DNA of 60,893 bases, filler included, from Sphacelaria rigidula (taxonomy: Eukaryota): NCBI GenBank assembly GCA_964200075.2. It is 8 parts of 8 records of this genome, joined end to end, with 100 filler letters (N's around TTAATTAATTAA, not from the genome) between each part and the next. Parts side by side here need not be neighbours in the genome. Positions count along the whole stretch, not along the records: positions 1 to 7,525 come from CAXNAA020014511.1; 7 more parts are not named here. One strand, 5' to 3'. Made by a program: the position numbers and the translations under genes. The notes below the pieces were generated by a model, which saw only the letters and a list, made by a program, of their open reading frames with translations, was not told the DNA's origin and ran no database searches. This document shows positions 247-7,049 of the stretch, piece by piece (position 1 is the stretch's first letter; every line of letters starts with the position of its first letter).

Positions 247-3200
247 CTGGCTTTGAGCGATATGAAACAAAAACAAAACGTAAGCTAGTGTCTCGCGACA
301 ACCGTCAATGAAATGATGTCATGTGCGACAACAAAGTTGCGCTACATGAACTCGTGAAGGTTAACTTTGGAAGTAGGATTGTTTTGCTTGAAAACTCACG
401 TTCGAAGTGGAAGATGCAAGTTAGGCTTTCATCTTTCAATAAACCATGCGAATTCCAAGTCGAATTTTGAAGTGAAGTCTCGGCTTCTATATCGAACTTT
501 AACTCACAGCTTCGGCTTTCACTTTCAACTTGAACGCGGCCGTTCAGATCGAAGTTTCAAGCTAAATCTTGGAACAATGGTGAAGCTTGAAGGTAATCCT
601 TTCATTCAAATTGAGGCTTGAACCTGAAGTACCCATACTCAACACGGAACGTTCAAGGTCGCGAGATTCGACTTGAACCTCACATTTGAACTCGATGAAG
701 ATTTAAGACGAACTCATCTTGAAGATCTCGACTTGAAAATACTATTCTTCTCTTCAAATAAACGATCACCTCTCAATTTGGGCGTTCGAGATAAATTTGT
801 AACAGCGGCTACCCAACGCCATTGTCCGAATGCTCATTCACCCCAACAGAAGCTATTTTAACGCACATGAGCCGCTGCAGGTAGGTACACTTCATTTCGA
901 CCTCATTTTCAAAGGGTACAGCGTTTGTAAGATGTTCGGAAAAACAACGGATGCACGTCTCAGCAGCGGCGTATTTCAAACGCTTCGTGGTCGGATGTAT
1001 ACTAAAATGCGATACGCATCGCACCTGTCCATCCGCGAGGTGCTTTTGCATACACTCTTCCGTGAACTTCAGACCGATGTTCCAGAGGTCAACATCCATG
1101 GACCGAACCGACACCTCCATCAGAGACGACTCCCAGCCGCCCCCGCCCAGTATCAGCTGCTGTATCTGCAAGCTCATACATAACAAAAGACAGTACGAAT
1201 GCAGGGAAATCTCGTGATCAGTCACGCCTCGCACGAAGCGCGAGTATCATAAAAACAAAGAGCGTATCATAAGGAAAAACAAATGCTGACGCGACGACCG
1301 TCCAAAACGATGTGCCAATGACGATCGCCCAGTTCAAGGGATGAAACTATTCCTCGTGCCTGCTCGTTGGTGAGCCTTCCCTGACACATGTTTACAACGG
1401 CTTCGAATGCATCCTTCCTCCTCAATTGCCCCAAAGTCAACACGGTGCAACCTAGTGTTCTCGACATCAGCATATTGCTGACCTGGGGGGTACGAAAACG
1501 TATAAAACAAACAAGAAACGTCGAGCACAAACACAGGCGAAGGTATCCCCATGAATCTGTCACTAACGCGCATGAACATGTGTCACAAGTAGAGCGCCCA
1601 CAGTACAAATTCTAACATTATGTGCCCACTCTCGTTAGTCAATACTCGCATACAGTACTTGGAACTACGGAACTCAAAGAAAAAAATAGGTCACACGTCA
1701 GCCCGATCCGGTGCCTCCTTTGATGGAGTCCAGACGGTTGGCCACAAGAACCGCTCACTAGGACCGCGAGCGCGTATAGCAGAATAAATAAAAAAGAGGA
1801 GGAAGAACCCGCCGTGAACCGGTGAGACAGTTCTACCAATTATACCATCGGAGGGTGAGACAACAGCCGAGTACTCTTAGCTTACTTTTTGTCAAGGCAT
1901 TTCCACATGCGCACAGGCACAACACCTCATCTAGTTCGCGGTACTACACCAATAACATTCCTATCCCATGGACCTAGCTGGGTACGCCATCGAGCTTCTC
2001 CGTAACATGTAAGGTGGGGAACGAGACTGGTGAAACTCCAAACCTTCACCTTTGCAGGTGTGAGCTTGTCCACGAGAGCAGCCACCACCGCCTCGAAGGT
2101 TTCTACGCTACAGCTATTCGCCGCCATCGACAACACTGTGGCCTTGAATGTGTTCTCCCACATCATAGTCTGTTCCAACTGCGAGGAAGACAGCGCAGAG
2201 TAAGCAGGGAAACATCACACCCGAGGAAACTTCGTCACGGTTCGACATGTTCGCACATTTCAAGTAAACAAGTGCACAGAGAGAGGACGAAAAACCACAC
2301 CCTCACACTGGCCAGGCCAGACTCTTCGACCTCCACCGCCGAATCATCACGAGTTTGCTTGGAATACTGCCGTCATCACAAGCACAACACTCGGGACTGT
2401 GCCATCCGAAGGGCACAACATGTACAGTAGTGGTCTGCAGGGGCTTATTGCGGGCGGCGCGCGCACTTGGGGAATCGATTCCTCCAGCGAAACGTCCTCG
2501 AGCACTCTAACAAAATGAACAAAAGACGAAAAACAAAAATCCGCCATGTCACCGGTAAGACAGTACTTTCAGGTCAACAAGCGCCTACACTACTGTGGTG
2601 CAAAACGGCAGCCGAGTGGCATCAGCTCACGTTTCCTGGAGACATTTCTCTATATGCGCACAGGCGCGTCTTCGTTATGCTACATGAGCATACAAGAGCC
2701 CAACGAGTTTGGTTTATCATCTCAGGGTAGAATAAACAAGTGAAGACAGAGCTCGAAAAGTCGTCAACCATCACCACCGCAGGTGTGAGCTTGTCCTCGA
2801 GAGCAGCTACTCTGTAGGGTATACAGGAAAAGACGAGGCACGTCAAGTCCTCAATCATCACCTCTGCAGGTGTGAGCTTGTCCTCGAGAGCAGCCACCGC
2901 CGCCTCGAAAGTCTCTTTGCTACCACCTCGGGCCGCCGCCAACAACACTGAATTATAACCGCCTGTCCACATCATCGCCTCTTTCATCTGCAAGGAAGCC
3001 ACGGCAGAGCAAGGGGGACACCATCGCGCACGAGGACTCTCATCGCGGTCGGACATGGCCACAGATTTCAAGACACGAGCGCACTGAGATTGGACGAACA
3101 ACAAAACCTCATATCGGCCAGGCGAGCAGCTTCGACATCTATCGACGAGTCATAACGGTTCGACTTGACATACTGCCGCCATCACAAGCGAAGCACTCCT

Positions 3201-6200: not shown

Positions 6201-7049
6201 CAGAAGCCCTGCTTGAACTCCAATCCATACCTCTAGTTGAAGCATAGCTATGGATATCCCCAAGGTTAGCGGACAACACGCATTAGGGTGAATGTTGAGA
6301 GTTCATATCCATCCTAATACCTTGACGGGTGGTTGTGATTTGTACGGTGCGCGCGGACGCTTCGAAACATCTCTGATTAATGGATTGGTCGACTGCCTTA
6401 CATCAACCGATTCCCCATGGATCCAGCCGTGGTCGTATGATCGACGTCCCCGAGACGAAACAACACTGAACCACTCGATGAAGAGAAGTGAAAAACACAC
6501 AATCTCCGTGCCCGGGCAACAGATGTTCTCATACGGGGCACCATCGAGATCGCTTGCAACGGCATAGGCTTGCACCTGTTCGGTGGGGAGGTAGTCGGGT
6601 AGCATCCTGAGGATAGCTGTGAAGATATCAGCGCTACGTCCTTGCACTGAATGCATCAGCAGTGTCGTGTCCTGCCTATCCACCACCACCATCATCCTCT
6701 TCACCTACCGGAAAACGCAAAAAAGACAAACGCACACTCTTGGGCTGTCAACATGTCCAGAGCAGAAGCATATTGCTTCGGGCAGCACGACGCCGAGCGT
6801 GTATGCCACCGCAATGTAGCAACTCGGATGAGCAATGCTGCTGTATTTTACAAAGCTCGAACGCCACACAGTTGGATACGCGCAACACGGGTGACGCAGA
6901 GATCATTCCATGAACAATACCTCTTGTCGAGTAAGCTCTATCTTGAGAAGATCGAACACCGCCTCGAAGACAGCCTGGCTCCCACTTCTCGCAGCCGCCA
7001 TGAGTATCGTGCGATCACGACCGTCTTTTCCCAGAAGGGCCTTCTTCAC
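1..7049 (-). CDS. Multi-exon ankyrin-like repeat protein, one repeat per exon, partial at both ends; possibly the N-terminal repeat region of an ANK-TRP-like membrane protein
   Basis: Phase-0 exons in transcript order: 7049-6921 (VKKALLGKDGRDRTILMAAARSGSQAVFEAVFDLLKIELTRQE), 6704-6576 (VKRMMVVVDRQDTTLLMHSVQGRSADIFTAILRMLPDYLPTEQ), 5287-5159, 4517-4392, 3752-3627, 2987-2862, 2178-2050, 1482-1360 (GC donor), 1165-1025, then 246-1 (open to the window edge). All have YAG acceptors and GT/GC donors. The ankyrin-like signature is T-x-L-x-x-A-A-x-x-G...F-E-A-V. Confidence 0.8.
335..800. repeat. TTGAA/TTCAA/TTCGA-rich degenerate intronic repeat
   Basis: Dense recurrence of aacttgaa, ttcaag, ttcgaa and aagtt motifs on both strands. 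Confidence 0.45.
1025..1165 (-). CDS. Degenerate terminal repeat exon (47 aa)
   Basis: CAG|ATA...CAG|GTGCG, 141 nt: IQQLILGGGGWESSLMEVSVRSMDVDLWNIGLKFTEECMQKHLADGQ. Confidence 0.6.
1360..1482 (-). CDS. Divergent ankyrin-like repeat exon (41 aa, putative GC donor)
   Basis: CCCCCCAG|GTC...CAG|GCACG, 123 nt: VSNMLMSRTLGCTVLTLGQLRRKDAFEAVVNMCQGRLTNEQ. Confidence 0.65.
1640..1860 (-). mobile_element. Possible tRNA-derived SINE inserted in an intron
   Basis: The minus strand begins CCCTCCGATGGTATAATTGGTAGAACTG (A-box-like), followed by GGTTCACGGCGGGTTC. The B-box is weak. Confidence 0.3.
2050..2178 (-). CDS. Array repeat exon (43 aa)
   Basis: CAG|TTG...AAG|GTGAAG, 129 nt: LEQTMMWENTFKATVLSMAANSCSVETFEAVVAALVDKLTPAK. 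Confidence 0.85.
2862..2987 (-). CDS. Array repeat exon (42 aa)
   Basis: CAG|ATG...GAG|GTGATG, 126 nt: MKEAMMWTGGYNSVLLAAARGGSKETFEAAVAALEDKLTPAE. Confidence 0.88.
3627..3752 (-). CDS. Array repeat exon (42 aa)
   Basis: 126 nt, exactly 765 bp from its neighbours: MKEAMMRKCGVDTVLSAAARGGSKETFEAAVAALEDKLTPAE. Confidence 0.88.
4392..4517 (-). CDS. Array repeat exon (42 aa)
   Basis: 126 nt: MKEAMMWTDGDDTVLSAAARGGSKETFEAAVAALEDKLTPAE. Confidence 0.88.
5159..5287 (-). CDS. Array repeat exon (43 aa; not in the ORF track)
   Basis: CAG|GTG...GAG|GTGATT, 129 nt: VKDAIMWKGFEHDTLLSMAAKSGSKDTFEAVMAAFEDKLTPAE. Confidence 0.85.
5574..5689 (-). pseudogene. Dead ankyrin-like repeat exon (pseudo-exon)
   Basis: Reads VNLMLTKSVDGMALLMDAVHTGTVIFENVHNTLRNRHP. 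The acceptor position is CAA instead of CAG, and the 116 nt to the GT is not a multiple of 3. Confidence 0.6.

What the first reader, a model, noticed from the sequence alone, without database searches (positions are those of the whole stretch)
1025..7049. Candidate exon-shuffling variable receptor: ankyrin-like gene with one phase-0 exon per repeat, amplified as 765-bp cassettes
Seen: nine exons, each encoding exactly one 41-47 aa ankyrin-like module and all phase 0/0, so any can be skipped, duplicated or swapped in frame. Five lie in a tandem array whose introns were duplicated with them. Known: brown algal ROCO (LRR) and NB-ARC (TPR) genes use this one-exon-one-repeat architecture and were proposed as diversifying immune receptors. 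Inference: this is a parallel system on a third scaffold, a long 42-43 aa ankyrin variant (canonical is 33 aa). I do not recall it being described, but I cannot search the literature.
Basis: partly seen in the sequence, partly recalled or inferred. Interest (0 to 1): 0.92.

Follow-up and report, generated by a model that had tools for sequence, protein, structure and literature searches.

The report
Ankyrin-repeat exons of algal TRP channel
This is the front part of a brown-alga-type TRP ion-channel gene in which every long ankyrin-like repeat sits on its own in-frame exon and the youngest exon-plus-intron units were copied in tandem, so it is a real and expressed gene, but a channel rather than an immune-type receptor.

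Summary
The minus strand carries nine 41-47 aa modules, each an exon-sized ORF whose length is a multiple of three, with AG acceptors and, except one, GT donors. Five lie in a 765-812 bp tandem array. Contigs of two cDNA-like runs join the exons at exactly the predicted borders and skip the module that has a GC donor. The modules are ankyrin-derived but have three helices and 42-43 residues.

The interpretation changes. The next exon downstream (246-1) is 95% identical to the start of an 812-aa protein with a TRP-type pore domain. The best named relative is Ectocarpus "Ankyrin Repeat Transient Receptor Potential Channel". The locus therefore encodes the N-terminal ankyrin domain of an ANK-TRP channel, and no NB-ARC or ROC-COR domain was found.

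Two findings are of more than routine interest. The three youngest cassettes have 98.6% identical introns, yet differ in a seven-codon patch on the hairpin loop. Contig depths suggest about 10-18 cassette copies against two to three in the assembly.

I rate it a new variant of a known kind, of moderate interest.

The parts
6921..7049 (-). Module exon E1 (43 codons). The transcript continues at least 248 nt further upstream, into sequence not present in 600-7500.
   Evidence: AG acceptor and GT donor, in frame. Joint 6702>6919 (cut +2) in X6 and X7. The 600-nt records 23 and 30 extend beyond 7052. It is the only single exon with a weak Ank_2 match (E 0.08).
6576..6704 (-). Module exon E2 (43 codons).
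   Evidence: Splice sites. Joints to E1 and to E3 in X6 and X7.
5582..5686 (-). Probable decayed module inside intron 2, not spliced in.
   Evidence: Weak similarity to relatives' modules (tblastn E 0.15; profile E 9.3). Contigs join 5287 directly to 6576 across it.
5159..5287 (-). Module exon E3 (43 codons), the oldest unit of the tandem array at its 5' end.
   Evidence: Joint 5284>6573 (cut +3) in X6 and X7.
4392..4517 (-). Module exon E4 (42 codons), young cassette.
   Evidence: Predicted alone as loop, helix 14-21 and helix 24-41.
3627..3752 (-). Module exon E5 (42 codons), young cassette.
   Evidence: X7 record 29 covers 3665-3752 without a mismatch and joins it to a cassette exon end.
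2862..2987 (-). Module exon E6 (42 codons), young cassette.
2805..4637 (-). Block of about 2.4 young 765-bp exon-plus-intron cassettes. Introns are 98.6% identical, and mismatches are concentrated in codons 7-13 of the exons.
   Evidence: Self-comparison at offset 765, pairwise identities, codon table. The contigs covering it have 10-18 times the depth of the flanking single-copy contigs.
2778..2810 (-). Fragment duplicating the last 11-12 codons of a module. It is a scar at the edge of the young block and is out of frame as a mini-exon.
   Evidence: Extra D4 copy at 2727-2810. Profile hit on positions 32-42. Sequence read directly.
2050..2178 (-). Module exon E7 (43 codons), the old unit of the array at its 3' end.
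   Evidence: Joint 1165>2050 in X6 and X7.
1360..1482 (-). Module E8 (41 codons) with a GC donor, skipped in the transcripts seen. Probably an inactivated exon.
   Evidence: Donor 'gcacga'. Contigs of X6 and X7 join 2050 to 1165 across it. E8-type modules on other contigs (P0060, P0063) are followed by V, a GTN codon.
1025..1165 (-). Module exon E9 (47 codons), a divergent last module.
   Evidence: X6 record 18 and X7 record 24 match it without a mismatch.
1..246 (-). Start of the linker and channel exon, which runs off the window's left end.
   Evidence: Acceptor cag|ATC in phase 0. 95% identical over 99% of its length to the start of P0098, which carries Ion_trans, YVC1_C and PKD_channel. 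tblastn to Ectocarpus ANK-TRP P0009 residues 530-581 gives E 1.3e-6. Its junction to E9 was not tested.

Best explanation
The region is the part of a brown-alga-type ANK-TRP cation-channel gene, on the minus strand, that encodes the N-terminal ankyrin-repeat domain. Each repeat is a 42-43 aa, three-helix variant of the ankyrin repeat and is encoded by its own exon, bounded by phase-0 introns at the same position in every repeat. The exon border falls inside the third helix.

The array grew by tandem duplication of 765-bp exon-plus-intron units. Unequal crossing-over between the homologous introns is the inferred mechanism. The gene is transcribed and spliced at the predicted sites. One module with a GC donor is skipped, and decayed modules lie in introns. 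The pore-forming part lies beyond the window's left end.

The encoded domain is inferred to be a cytoplasmic solenoid at the N-terminus of a tetrameric channel, serving as a binding platform, tether or gating spring whose length is set by the number of cassettes. The hairpin loops, which are the usual ankyrin binding face, are the part that differs between young cassettes.

Shown here: the exon anatomy, the splicing, the ankyrin ancestry, homology of the next exon to TRP channels, and the mismatch clustering. Inferred: that all these exons form one gene, the crossing-over mechanism, the topology and function of the domain, and the higher true copy number.
For: Anatomy.

Splicing: joints at 6704/6921, 5287/6576 and 1165/2050, and cassette end to cassette start, with GT..AG ends on the minus strand. 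They occur in X6 and X7 and are absent from DNA runs X1 and X3. The spliced frame is open over 428 codons.

Ankyrin ancestry:
- Full-length relatives pass Pfam's ankyrin cut-offs: P0007 Ank_2 56.9 bits against 27.3, P0009 40.5 bits.
- The window's own module profile aligns to canonical 33-aa repeats at score 30.5, probability 93.6%. Thirty column-shuffled controls scored 4.9-10.7.
- The AlphaFold model of P0007 (pLDDT 75.7, pTM 0.74) has three helices per module.
- Its best Foldseek matches are all ankyrin-repeat proteins, E 3e-9 and weaker, 217 matches at E<=0.001.

Channel link:
- Exon 246-1 against P0098 gives E 2e-42 at 95% identity.
- P0098 has Ion_trans at 48 bits against a cut-off of 25.
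- P0098 matches solved TRP channels: Inactive 1.7e-15, YVC1 4e-14, also TRPM, TRPC and the Chlamydomonas TRP-like channel.
- P0009, named 'Ankyrin Repeat Transient Receptor Potential Channel [Ectocarpus siliculosus]', holds the modules, the linker and Ion_trans in one chain.
- P0038 and P0103 also combine modules with Ion_trans.

Family-wide exon rule: on short ORFs called on genomic contigs, the residue after the module is V (GTN) in 53 of 58 and the residue before it is Q (CAG) in 20 of 24. 57 of 71 such ORFs hold a single module.
Against: - The junction from E9 (1025) to the exon at 246 was not observed. I laid reads only on 600-7500, and the E9 contigs stop 4 nt past the exon. One-gene status therefore rests on strand, compatible phase and the architecture of relatives.
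- The pore domain itself is not in the window.
- P0098 is 95%, not 100%, identical, so it is a paralogue or another strain's copy.
- Single window exons do not reach Pfam's ankyrin threshold: 1 of 9 had any hit, at 13.9 bits against 27.3.
- The module profile against PDB sequences gave only a non-significant DARPin match, E 0.38.
- The global TM-scores of the fold matches are low, 0.18-0.37.
- The structure model is of a relative, not of this protein.
- The 5' end of the gene was not found in the window.
- X6 and X7 are labelled RNA only as a guess by the tool. The spliced joints are what mark them as cDNA.
Confidence: 0.8

Rival explanations
1. One reading: a diversifying recognition receptor, parallel to brown-algal ROCO-LRR and NB-ARC-TPR genes, in which in-frame cassette exons are duplicated, lost, swapped or alternatively spliced to vary a ligand-binding surface. 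The ligands could be pathogen molecules, and the output here would be a Ca2+-permeable channel.
For: - The same one-repeat-one-symmetrical-exon design is present, together with decayed repeat exons in introns, as described for ROCO genes (PMC3341825).
- Between the young cassettes, 14 of 16 exon mismatches fall in codons 7-13. All changed codons but one are non-synonymous, while introns differ by about 1.3%.
- The same positions are the most variable across 43 family modules.
- One X7 contig joins E5 to an upstream exon end that differs at codon 26 from the assembly's upstream exon E4.
Against: - No NB-ARC, ROC-COR or TIR domain is present in any brown-algal relative scanned.
- The partner domain is an ion channel whose N-terminal ankyrin domain is cytoplasmic in the solved TRP channels (general knowledge).
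- No alternative isoform other than the skipped dead exon was seen, though contigs cannot show rare ones.
- The selection signal rests on three exons. Short gene-conversion tracts or a collapsed assembly could produce the same pattern.
Confidence: 0.1
2. Assembly artefact: the tandem array, or its size, is a product of mis-assembly of dispersed paralogous exons, so the cassette structure is not real as drawn.
For: - No contig of any of the four runs spans the array. Contigs break at the edges of the young block, for example X1 record 1 at 2834.
- Cassette contigs have 10-18 times the single-copy depth, so most copies are not represented in the window.
- A scaffold gap lies 500 bp upstream of E1, at 7526-7625.
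Against: - Runs of three studies hold half or more, or a large part, of the stretch.
- Flanking contigs run from unique sequence into the first and last units (X1 records 1 and 6, X3 records 9 and 13).
- cDNA-like contigs join cassette exon to cassette exon in frame.
- The graded divergence of the five units, and the 87-bp scar at 2727-2810, are what tandem duplication leaves behind.
- The depth argues for more copies, not fewer.
Confidence: 0.07
3. Two genes: the ankyrin-module exons belong to a separate soluble ankyrin-repeat protein gene that merely lies upstream of a TRP channel gene.
For: - The E9-to-246 junction was not observed.
- Several database relatives (P0007, P0008, P0012, P0018) are modules-only models without a channel domain.
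Against: - P0009, P0038 and P0103 combine both parts in one protein.
- The window exon 246-1 matches the linker that follows the modules in P0009.
- The strand is the same, both borders are in phase 0, and the spliced frame stays open.
- There is no in-frame stop or obvious terminal exon after E9.
- An E8-type module ORF (P0063) and a channel-exon ORF (P0099) are each recorded on a single Logan contig of 5115 nt, possibly the same contig.
Confidence: 0.05

Closest known systems
Ectocarpus siliculosus 'Ankyrin Repeat Transient Receptor Potential Channel' (CBJ29682.1 = P0009), with related models in Nemacystus, Cladosiphon, Scytosiphon and Sphacelaria
   Same: The same 37-48 aa modules, seven stretches matched by the module profile, followed by the same linker (tblastn E 1.3e-6) and, in P0009, an Ion_trans/YVC1-like pore domain. 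All named relatives are brown algae.
   Different: The window copy is seen only up to the linker. It has a run of near-identical 42-aa cassettes not evident in P0009. I could not inspect the exon structure of the Ectocarpus gene, because no eukaryotic genome is held.
Animal TRP channels with N-terminal ankyrin domains (TRPV such as Drosophila Inactive, TRPC, and by recall TRPA1 and NOMPC/TRPN)
   Same: A pore domain related at sequence level to P0098 (Inactive 1.7e-15, TRPC6 1.7e-11), with an ankyrin solenoid N-terminal to the channel.
   Different: The repeats here have 42-43 residues and a predicted third helix instead of the 33-residue two-helix unit. That NOMPC's 29 repeats act as a gating spring is recalled, not checked here. 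No functional data exist for the algal protein.
Brown-algal ROCO-LRR and NB-ARC-TPR candidate receptors with exon shuffling (Zambounis et al. 2012, PMC3341825; PMC11378527)
   Same: One repeat per exon, symmetrical introns, repeats duplicated together with their introns, and inactivated repeat exons left in introns (for the papers; for this locus).
   Different: A different repeat scaffold (ankyrin), a different exon size (126-129 nt against 72 nt for LRR), and a different output domain (ion channel, no NTPase). [quoted passage not shown] Its supplementary table 2, which lists the few exceptions, could not be read.
Vertebrate ankyrin genes with mostly one 33-aa repeat per 99-bp exon
   Same: One ankyrin repeat per in-frame exon.
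   Different: This is recalled only. My literature search for it returned nothing usable, so it is a lead and not a tested comparison. The vertebrate repeats are canonical 33-aa units and are old and diverged, not near-identical cassettes.

Membership tests
Ankyrin repeat (Pfam Ank clan) | Match to the Pfam ankyrin profiles above the gathering score | tested here: inconclusive
   Of the window exons scanned singly, 1 of 9 had any hit (E1, Ank_2 13.9 bits against a cut-off of 27.3). The spliced protein could not be submitted. Relatives with the same modules pass: P0007 56.9 bits, P0009 40.5, P0040 48.9.
Ankyrin repeat (Pfam Ank clan) | Core motif register (T-x-L-H, A-A, G, then the second helix) shared with canonical repeats | tested here: met
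   hhalign of the nine window modules against 7 canonical 33-aa repeats cut from database hits places module positions 11-34 on repeat positions 3-26, score 30.5, probability 93.6%. Thirty column-shuffled controls scored 4.9-10.7.
Ankyrin repeat (Pfam Ank clan) | Stacked helix-turn-helix units with hairpin loops forming a solenoid | tested here: met
   This rests on prediction only. The P0007 model has pLDDT 75.7 (85-96 in most repeat blocks). All listed Foldseek matches are ankyrin-repeat proteins, at probability 1.00 but TM 0.18-0.37. Window module E4 alone gives helices 14-21 and 24-41.
Ankyrin repeat (Pfam Ank clan) | 33-residue period with two helices per repeat | tested here: not met
   The period is 42-43 residues in 7 of 9 window modules. 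The model of the relative has three helices per unit, of about 7, 14 and 9 residues.
TRP cation channel | Six-transmembrane Ion_trans domain with pore loop related to TRP channels | not testable with these tools
   The window ends in the linker exon and no whole genome is held. The exon's 95%-identical relative P0098 has Ion_trans at 48 bits against 25, YVC1_C at 38.5 against 27 and PKD_channel at 25.8 against 22.4. P0098 also matches 168 solved sequences at E<=0.01; the 60 best shown are TRP-type channels.
TRP cation channel | Ankyrin domain and channel in one polypeptide | tested here: inconclusive
   This holds for relatives P0009, P0038 and P0103. For the window gene it is supported by strand, phase and an open spliced frame, but the E9-to-246 junction was not observed.
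Brown-algal exon-shuffled candidate receptors (ROCO, NB-ARC-TPR) | One repeat per symmetrical exon, with duplicated introns and inactivated repeat exons in introns | tested here: met
   The feature is as defined in PMC3341825.
Brown-algal exon-shuffled candidate receptors (ROCO, NB-ARC-TPR) | ROC-COR GTPase or NB-ARC NTPase signalling domain | tested here: not met
   No such Pfam family appears in the brown-algal relatives named that were scanned, nor in P0098 or P0103. nSTAND3 appears only in P0026 and P0031, which carry canonical ankyrin repeats and whose origin I did not look up.
Brown-algal exon-shuffled candidate receptors (ROCO, NB-ARC-TPR) | Repeat exons reshuffled between paralogues or alternatively spliced | tested here: inconclusive
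   Only contigs were available. They show one skipped dead exon and one exon adjacency that differs from the assembly at a single base.

The most novel reading that the evidence does not exclude
Brown algae have a third class of cassette-diversified repeat sensors, wired directly to a Ca2+-permeable TRP pore. The ankyrin domain is lengthened and varied by amplification of exon-plus-intron cassettes. Its hairpin loops evolve under positive selection, so that different family members, or different alleles and isoforms, recognise different intracellular ligands, such as pathogen effectors, and answer with an ion flux. The array in this genome would be several times longer than assembled and would vary between strains.
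Probability: 0.1. Interest if true: 0.85.

Novelty: new variant of a known kind. Interest (0 to 1): 0.5.

Why it matters
TRP channels are the main candidate environmental sensors of brown algae, and a preprint reports the family as massively expanded in some lineages (10.1101/2024.02.19.579948). How that diversity arises has not been described in any paper I could find.

This locus shows a concrete route. Each ankyrin repeat is a movable in-frame exon, and whole exon-plus-intron units are being copied now. The young copies differ almost only in the loop that ankyrin proteins normally use to bind partners.

It also qualifies a published statement that exon shuffling in Ectocarpus is essentially restricted to LRR and TPR genes (PMC3341825, section 17). 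In addition, it describes a 42-43 aa, three-helix form of the ankyrin repeat.

In practical terms, the depth data warn that such arrays are probably collapsed in short-read assemblies, so gene models of this family are likely to be truncated.

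Tried and rejected
- TRF found nothing in the array because its longest period is 500.
- No whole genome is held for the window, so paralogous arrays could not be counted.
- Pfam on single exons gave only E1 with Ank_2 at E 0.08, and an irrelevant hit for E8.
- The module profile against PDB sequences gave a DARPin at E 0.38, not significant.
- The word-index protein search with the module alignment returned only six short ORFs from unnamed contigs.
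- The search with the 172-aa read-through ORF around E5, meant to collect cassette variants, found nothing.
- A scan of JGI metagenome contigs matched 315 pattern stretches, none of them a relative. Two earlier attempts failed on input rules.
- Earlier findings of this scan held nothing for this genome or sequence.
- A search for the conserved N-terminal region of relatives in the rest of the window gave only noise. The 5' end is therefore probably in the gap at 7526-7625 or elsewhere.
- The bacterial promoter and terminator scan is irrelevant to a eukaryotic gene.
- Sequencing runs: no RNA holder is listed as such. X6-X9 are guesses by the tool.
- Parts without cover in X3, X6 and X7 (3834-4295 and others) are not evidence of anything.
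- The joint 2180>2777 (X6 only, ends GC..CA) lies in a contig with 7 mismatches to E7. I take it for a paralogue's transcript and draw nothing from it.
- I considered and rejected that the fragment at 2778-2810 is a mini-exon. With the nearby AG sites it would be 35 or 37 nt long and break the frame.
- I considered TPR, Sel1 and HEAT ancestry for the modules. I rejected it because the profile, fold and Pfam evidence all point to ankyrin.
- Supplementary tables that bear on novelty could not be read. These are table 2 of PMC3341825 and Table S16 of the 2024 preprint.

Full report
**What is in the sequence**

The gene lies on the minus strand. Nine module ORFs stand at 7049-6921, 6704-6576, 5287-5159, 4517-4392, 3752-3627, 2987-2862, 2178-2050, 1482-1360 and 1165-1025. 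I call them E1 to E9.
- They are 43, 43, 43, 42, 42, 42, 43, 41 and 47 codons long, and every length is a multiple of three.
- Each is preceded by a pyrimidine-rich tract and AG.
- All but E8 are followed by GT; E8 is followed by GC.
- They align to one consensus, roughly V-K-E-A-M-M-W-x-x-G-x-x-T-V-L-S-x-A-A-x-S-G-S-K-D-T-F-E-A-V-V-A-A-L-E-D-K-L-T-P-A-E.
- A profile of the nine finds nothing else in the six frames of the 60.9-kb window except a fragment at 2810-2778. The next hit has E 0.64.

**The tandem array**

- The repeat finder gives five copies of a 119-nt core at 2021, 2833, 3598, 4363 and 5130, with spacings of 812, 765, 765 and 767 bp. It also gives three copies of a 300-nt stretch at 2805, 3570 and 4335, at 96-100% identity.
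- Cut from exon start to exon start, units 4 and 5 are 98.6% identical in the intron (630 of 639) and 94.4% in the exon (119 of 126). The outer units fall to 49-85% in the intron.
- A self-comparison at offset 765 shows that the young block runs from 2805 to about 4637, which is about 2.4 units.
- An extra 84-nt copy of an exon end plus intron start at 2727-2810 marks the edge of that block.
- TRF reported nothing because its longest period is 500.

**Transcription and splicing**

Nine runs from three studies hold the stretch or part of it; none is on record as RNA. I laid the contigs of X1 and X3 (DNA-like) and of X6 and X7 (which the tool labels RNA as a guess) on 600-7500. Only X6 and X7 contain joints with CT..AC ends, which is GT..AG on the minus strand. 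The joints sit exactly at the predicted borders:
- 6704|6921 joins E1 to E2.
- 5287|6576 joins E2 to E3.
- 1165|2050 joins E7 to E9.
- A cassette exon end is joined to a cassette exon start.

Because these joints are absent from X1 and X3, X6 and X7 hold cDNA and the exons are real.

The E7-E9 joint skips E8, the module with the GC donor, so in these transcripts E8 is not an exon. The E2-E3 joint likewise passes over a weak module-like stretch at 5686-5582. With the fragment at 2810-2778, that makes three decayed module pieces inside introns.

The 600-nt contigs that hold E3-E2-E1 continue 248 nt further upstream into sequence that is not in 600-7500. The conserved N-terminal region of relatives is not detectable anywhere in the window. 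The 5' end probably lies in the scaffold gap at 7526-7625.

The spliced frame E1-E7, E9 and the next exon is open for 428 codons.

**What the modules are**

- Scanned one by one, only E1 touches Pfam Ank_2, at E 0.08.
- A profile search of 1.84 billion representatives found 96 proteins at E<=0.001. Of these, 25 have 200 residues or more.
- The named long hits are all from brown algae: Ectocarpus, Cladosiphon, Scytosiphon, Nemacystus and Sphacelaria.
- They pass Pfam's ankyrin thresholds, for example P0007 with Ank_2 at 56.9 bits against 27.3.
- The window's own module profile aligns with canonical 33-residue repeats cut from database hits, module positions 11-34 on repeat positions 3-26. The score is 30.5 and the probability 93.6%, against 4.9-10.7 for 30 column-shuffled controls.
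- The AlphaFold model of P0007 (12-row alignment, pLDDT 75.7, pTM 0.74) shows three helices per module, of about 7, 14 and 9 residues. The third helix spans the end of one module and the start of the next, so the exon border falls inside it.
- The best Foldseek matches in the PDB are all ankyrin-repeat proteins: DARPins, ankyrin-1, ankyrin-B, FEM1 and tankyrase. There are 217 matches at E<=0.001, but global TM-scores are low at 0.18-0.37, as expected if period and curvature differ.
- Module E4 of the window, folded alone with 38 rows, gives a loop followed by helices at 14-21 and 24-41, with pLDDT 70.5.

The modules are therefore ankyrin-derived, but they are not the canonical 33-residue two-helix unit.

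**What the gene is**

Downstream of E9, after a 778-bp intron, an ORF begins behind cag at 246 and runs off the window's left end. The evidence that it leads into a TRP channel is as follows:
- It is 95% identical over 99% of its length to the start of P0098, an 812-aa protein from an unnamed NCBI contig (E 2e-42).
- P0098 carries Ion_trans (48 bits against 25), YVC1_C and PKD_channel.
- P0098 matches solved TRP channels: Drosophila Inactive 1.7e-15, yeast YVC1 4e-14, also TRPM, TRPC and the Chlamydomonas TRP-like channel.
- The same exon matches residues 530-581 of P0009 (tblastn E 1.3e-6).
- P0009 is CBJ29682.1, 'Ankyrin Repeat Transient Receptor Potential Channel [Ectocarpus siliculosus]'. 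It has the modules at about 100-480, this linker, and Ion_trans at 844-1026.
- P0038 (Nemacystus) and P0103 ('Transient Receptor Potential Channel. C terminally truncated', Ectocarpus) show the same combination.

The window therefore holds the ankyrin-domain part of an ANK-TRP channel gene, and the pore part lies beyond position 1.

I did not observe the junction from 1025 to 246, because my single read-laying run began at 600. That step rests on strand, phase and the architecture of relatives.

**The exon rule is family-wide**

Among 71 short ORFs (under 200 aa) that gene callers made on genomic contigs and that hit the module profile, 57 hold one module, 11 hold two and 3 hold three.
- Where sequence continues past the module, the next residue is V, a GTN codon, in 53 of 58.
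- Where sequence precedes the module, the residue before it is Q (CAG) in 20 of 24.

So the introns sit at the same phase-0 position in most modules of the family. By contrast, P0099 (362 aa) and P0098 (812 aa) suggest that the linker and pore part is encoded in large exons. I could not check their contigs.

**The young cassettes differ where ankyrins bind**

- Between units at 2805-3569 and 3570-4334 there are 9 mismatches in the 126-nt exon and 8 in 639 nt of intron (Fisher p 5e-4).
- In the second, shorter pair there are 7 in the exon and 6 in 177 nt of intron, which is not significant alone.
- Of the 16 exon mismatches, 14 lie in codons 7-13.
- Among E4, E5 and E6, the changed codons are 7, 8, 9, 11, 12, 13 and 16, all non-synonymous, plus one synonymous change at codon 26.
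- In the model these residues form the loop between the third helix and the first helix of the next unit. This is the counterpart of the ankyrin hairpin.
- Across 43 family modules the same positions (7-13, 17-18, 21) have the highest entropy, while T14, L16, A19, A20, F28, A30 and L39 are nearly fixed.

This pattern fits diversifying selection on a binding face. It also fits short gene-conversion tracts from other cassettes, or chimeric consensus in a collapsed assembly. Three exons cannot decide between these.

**Copy number**

- In X1 the long flanking contigs have depth 47-48, and the contigs on the young cassette have 462-671.
- In X3 the figures are 38.5-43.9 against 654-718 (table 8).
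- The window holds two to three copies of those stretches, so the reads imply roughly 10-18 copies.
- In X6 and X7 the cassette-to-cassette junction contigs have depth 1371 and 732, against 115 and 89 for the E1-E3 contig.
- One X7 contig joins the start of E5 to an exon end that has the E5/E6 base at codon 26, not the base of E4, which precedes E5 in the assembly.

The tool warns that depth is not a copy number, and other loci could share the cassette. I therefore state only as an inference that the array is longer than assembled, or that sister arrays exist.

**How it probably works**

Shown:
- The protein has an N-terminal solenoid of long ankyrin-like repeats.
- The gene builds that solenoid from interchangeable in-frame exons.
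- Units are being added by tandem duplication.

Inferred:
- Unequal crossing-over between the near-identical introns is the mechanism of gain and loss.
- The domain is cytoplasmic and serves as a binding platform, tether or spring for gating, as in animal TRP channels with ankyrin domains. This is recalled knowledge.
- The number of cassettes sets the domain's length, and the loops set its partners.

**Comparison with what is in print**

[quoted passage not shown] After a genome-wide screen for successive in-frame exons of equal length, they state that exon shuffling is 'overwhelmingly restricted' to those loci (PMC3341825, passages and section 17).
- The 2024 ROCO paper confirms 72-bp LRR exons and mentions ankyrin only for other organisms' ROCOs (PMC11378527, passages).
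- The Phaeoexplorer preprint reports TRP channels in all brown algae, with massive expansion in some lineages. It contains neither 'ankyrin' nor 'exon shuffling' (10.1101/2024.02.19.579948, passages).
- Four full-text searches turned up no description of exon-per-repeat ankyrin arrays in algal TRP genes or of a 42-residue ankyrin variant. This is limited to the library searched, and supplements are closed.

**Verdict**

Its classification as a third immune-type receptor scaffold is not right: the gene belongs to an already annotated family of ankyrin-TRP channels.

Three things appear to be new:
- the one-module-per-exon cassette architecture of that family's ankyrin domain;
- its ongoing amplification, with loop-focused differences between young copies;
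- the three-helix repeat form.

I rate it a new variant of a known kind, interest about 0.5.

Noticed in passing
window 7526-7712: The scaffold gap consists of two runs of N around a TTAATTAATTAA linker (7526-7625). It is followed directly by an 87-nt perfect hairpin-like palindrome with 27-nt arms (7626-7712) at the start of the next contig. This may be an assembly or library artefact, or a small inverted-repeat element.
   Followed up: no
window 7299-7500 and 6375-6605: Summed contig depth is extremely high in the DNA runs: about 2.2-2.8 million at 7299-7500 and 6,000-9,000 at 6375-6605, against about 45 for single-copy sequence. There are many loose ends, and a joint 6451>7338 appears in both DNA runs. 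These look like high-copy repeats flanking E1 and E2 at the contig end.
   Followed up: partly
window 32186-36407, minus strand: ORFs of a Ty1/copia-type LTR retrotransposon: RVT_2 at 54.4 bits, plus copia-type gag and GAG-pre-integrase.
   Followed up: partly
window 27701-28219, minus strand: An ORF with a canonical-looking ankyrin stretch (Ank_5 24.3 bits, just below the cut-off of 27) sits next to long proline runs and a short run of N. It is unrelated to the 42-aa modules.
   Followed up: partly
window 47351-52353, minus strand: A GC-rich region (0.63) holds very long open frames of 538 and 631 aa, rich in G, Q and P runs. They may be low-complexity coding sequence or a compositional artefact.
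   Followed up: no
window 2050-2180 and 2777-2807: X6 has a 162-nt contig that matches E7 with 7 mismatches and joins it, with non-canonical ends GC..CA, to the module fragment at 2777-2807. It is probably a transcript of a paralogue.
   Followed up: no
P0063 and P0099 (unnamed Logan contig or contigs of 5115 nt): An E8-type module ORF with an intact GT donor and a 362-aa ORF for the linker and first transmembrane part of the channel are each recorded on one contig of 5115 nt. If it is the same contig, it links module exons and channel exon physically in a paralogue.
   Followed up: no
window 9314-10321, minus strand: A 335-aa open frame with hydrophobic stretches has no Pfam match. It is possibly an exon of a membrane protein gene upstream of the gap.
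   Followed up: partly
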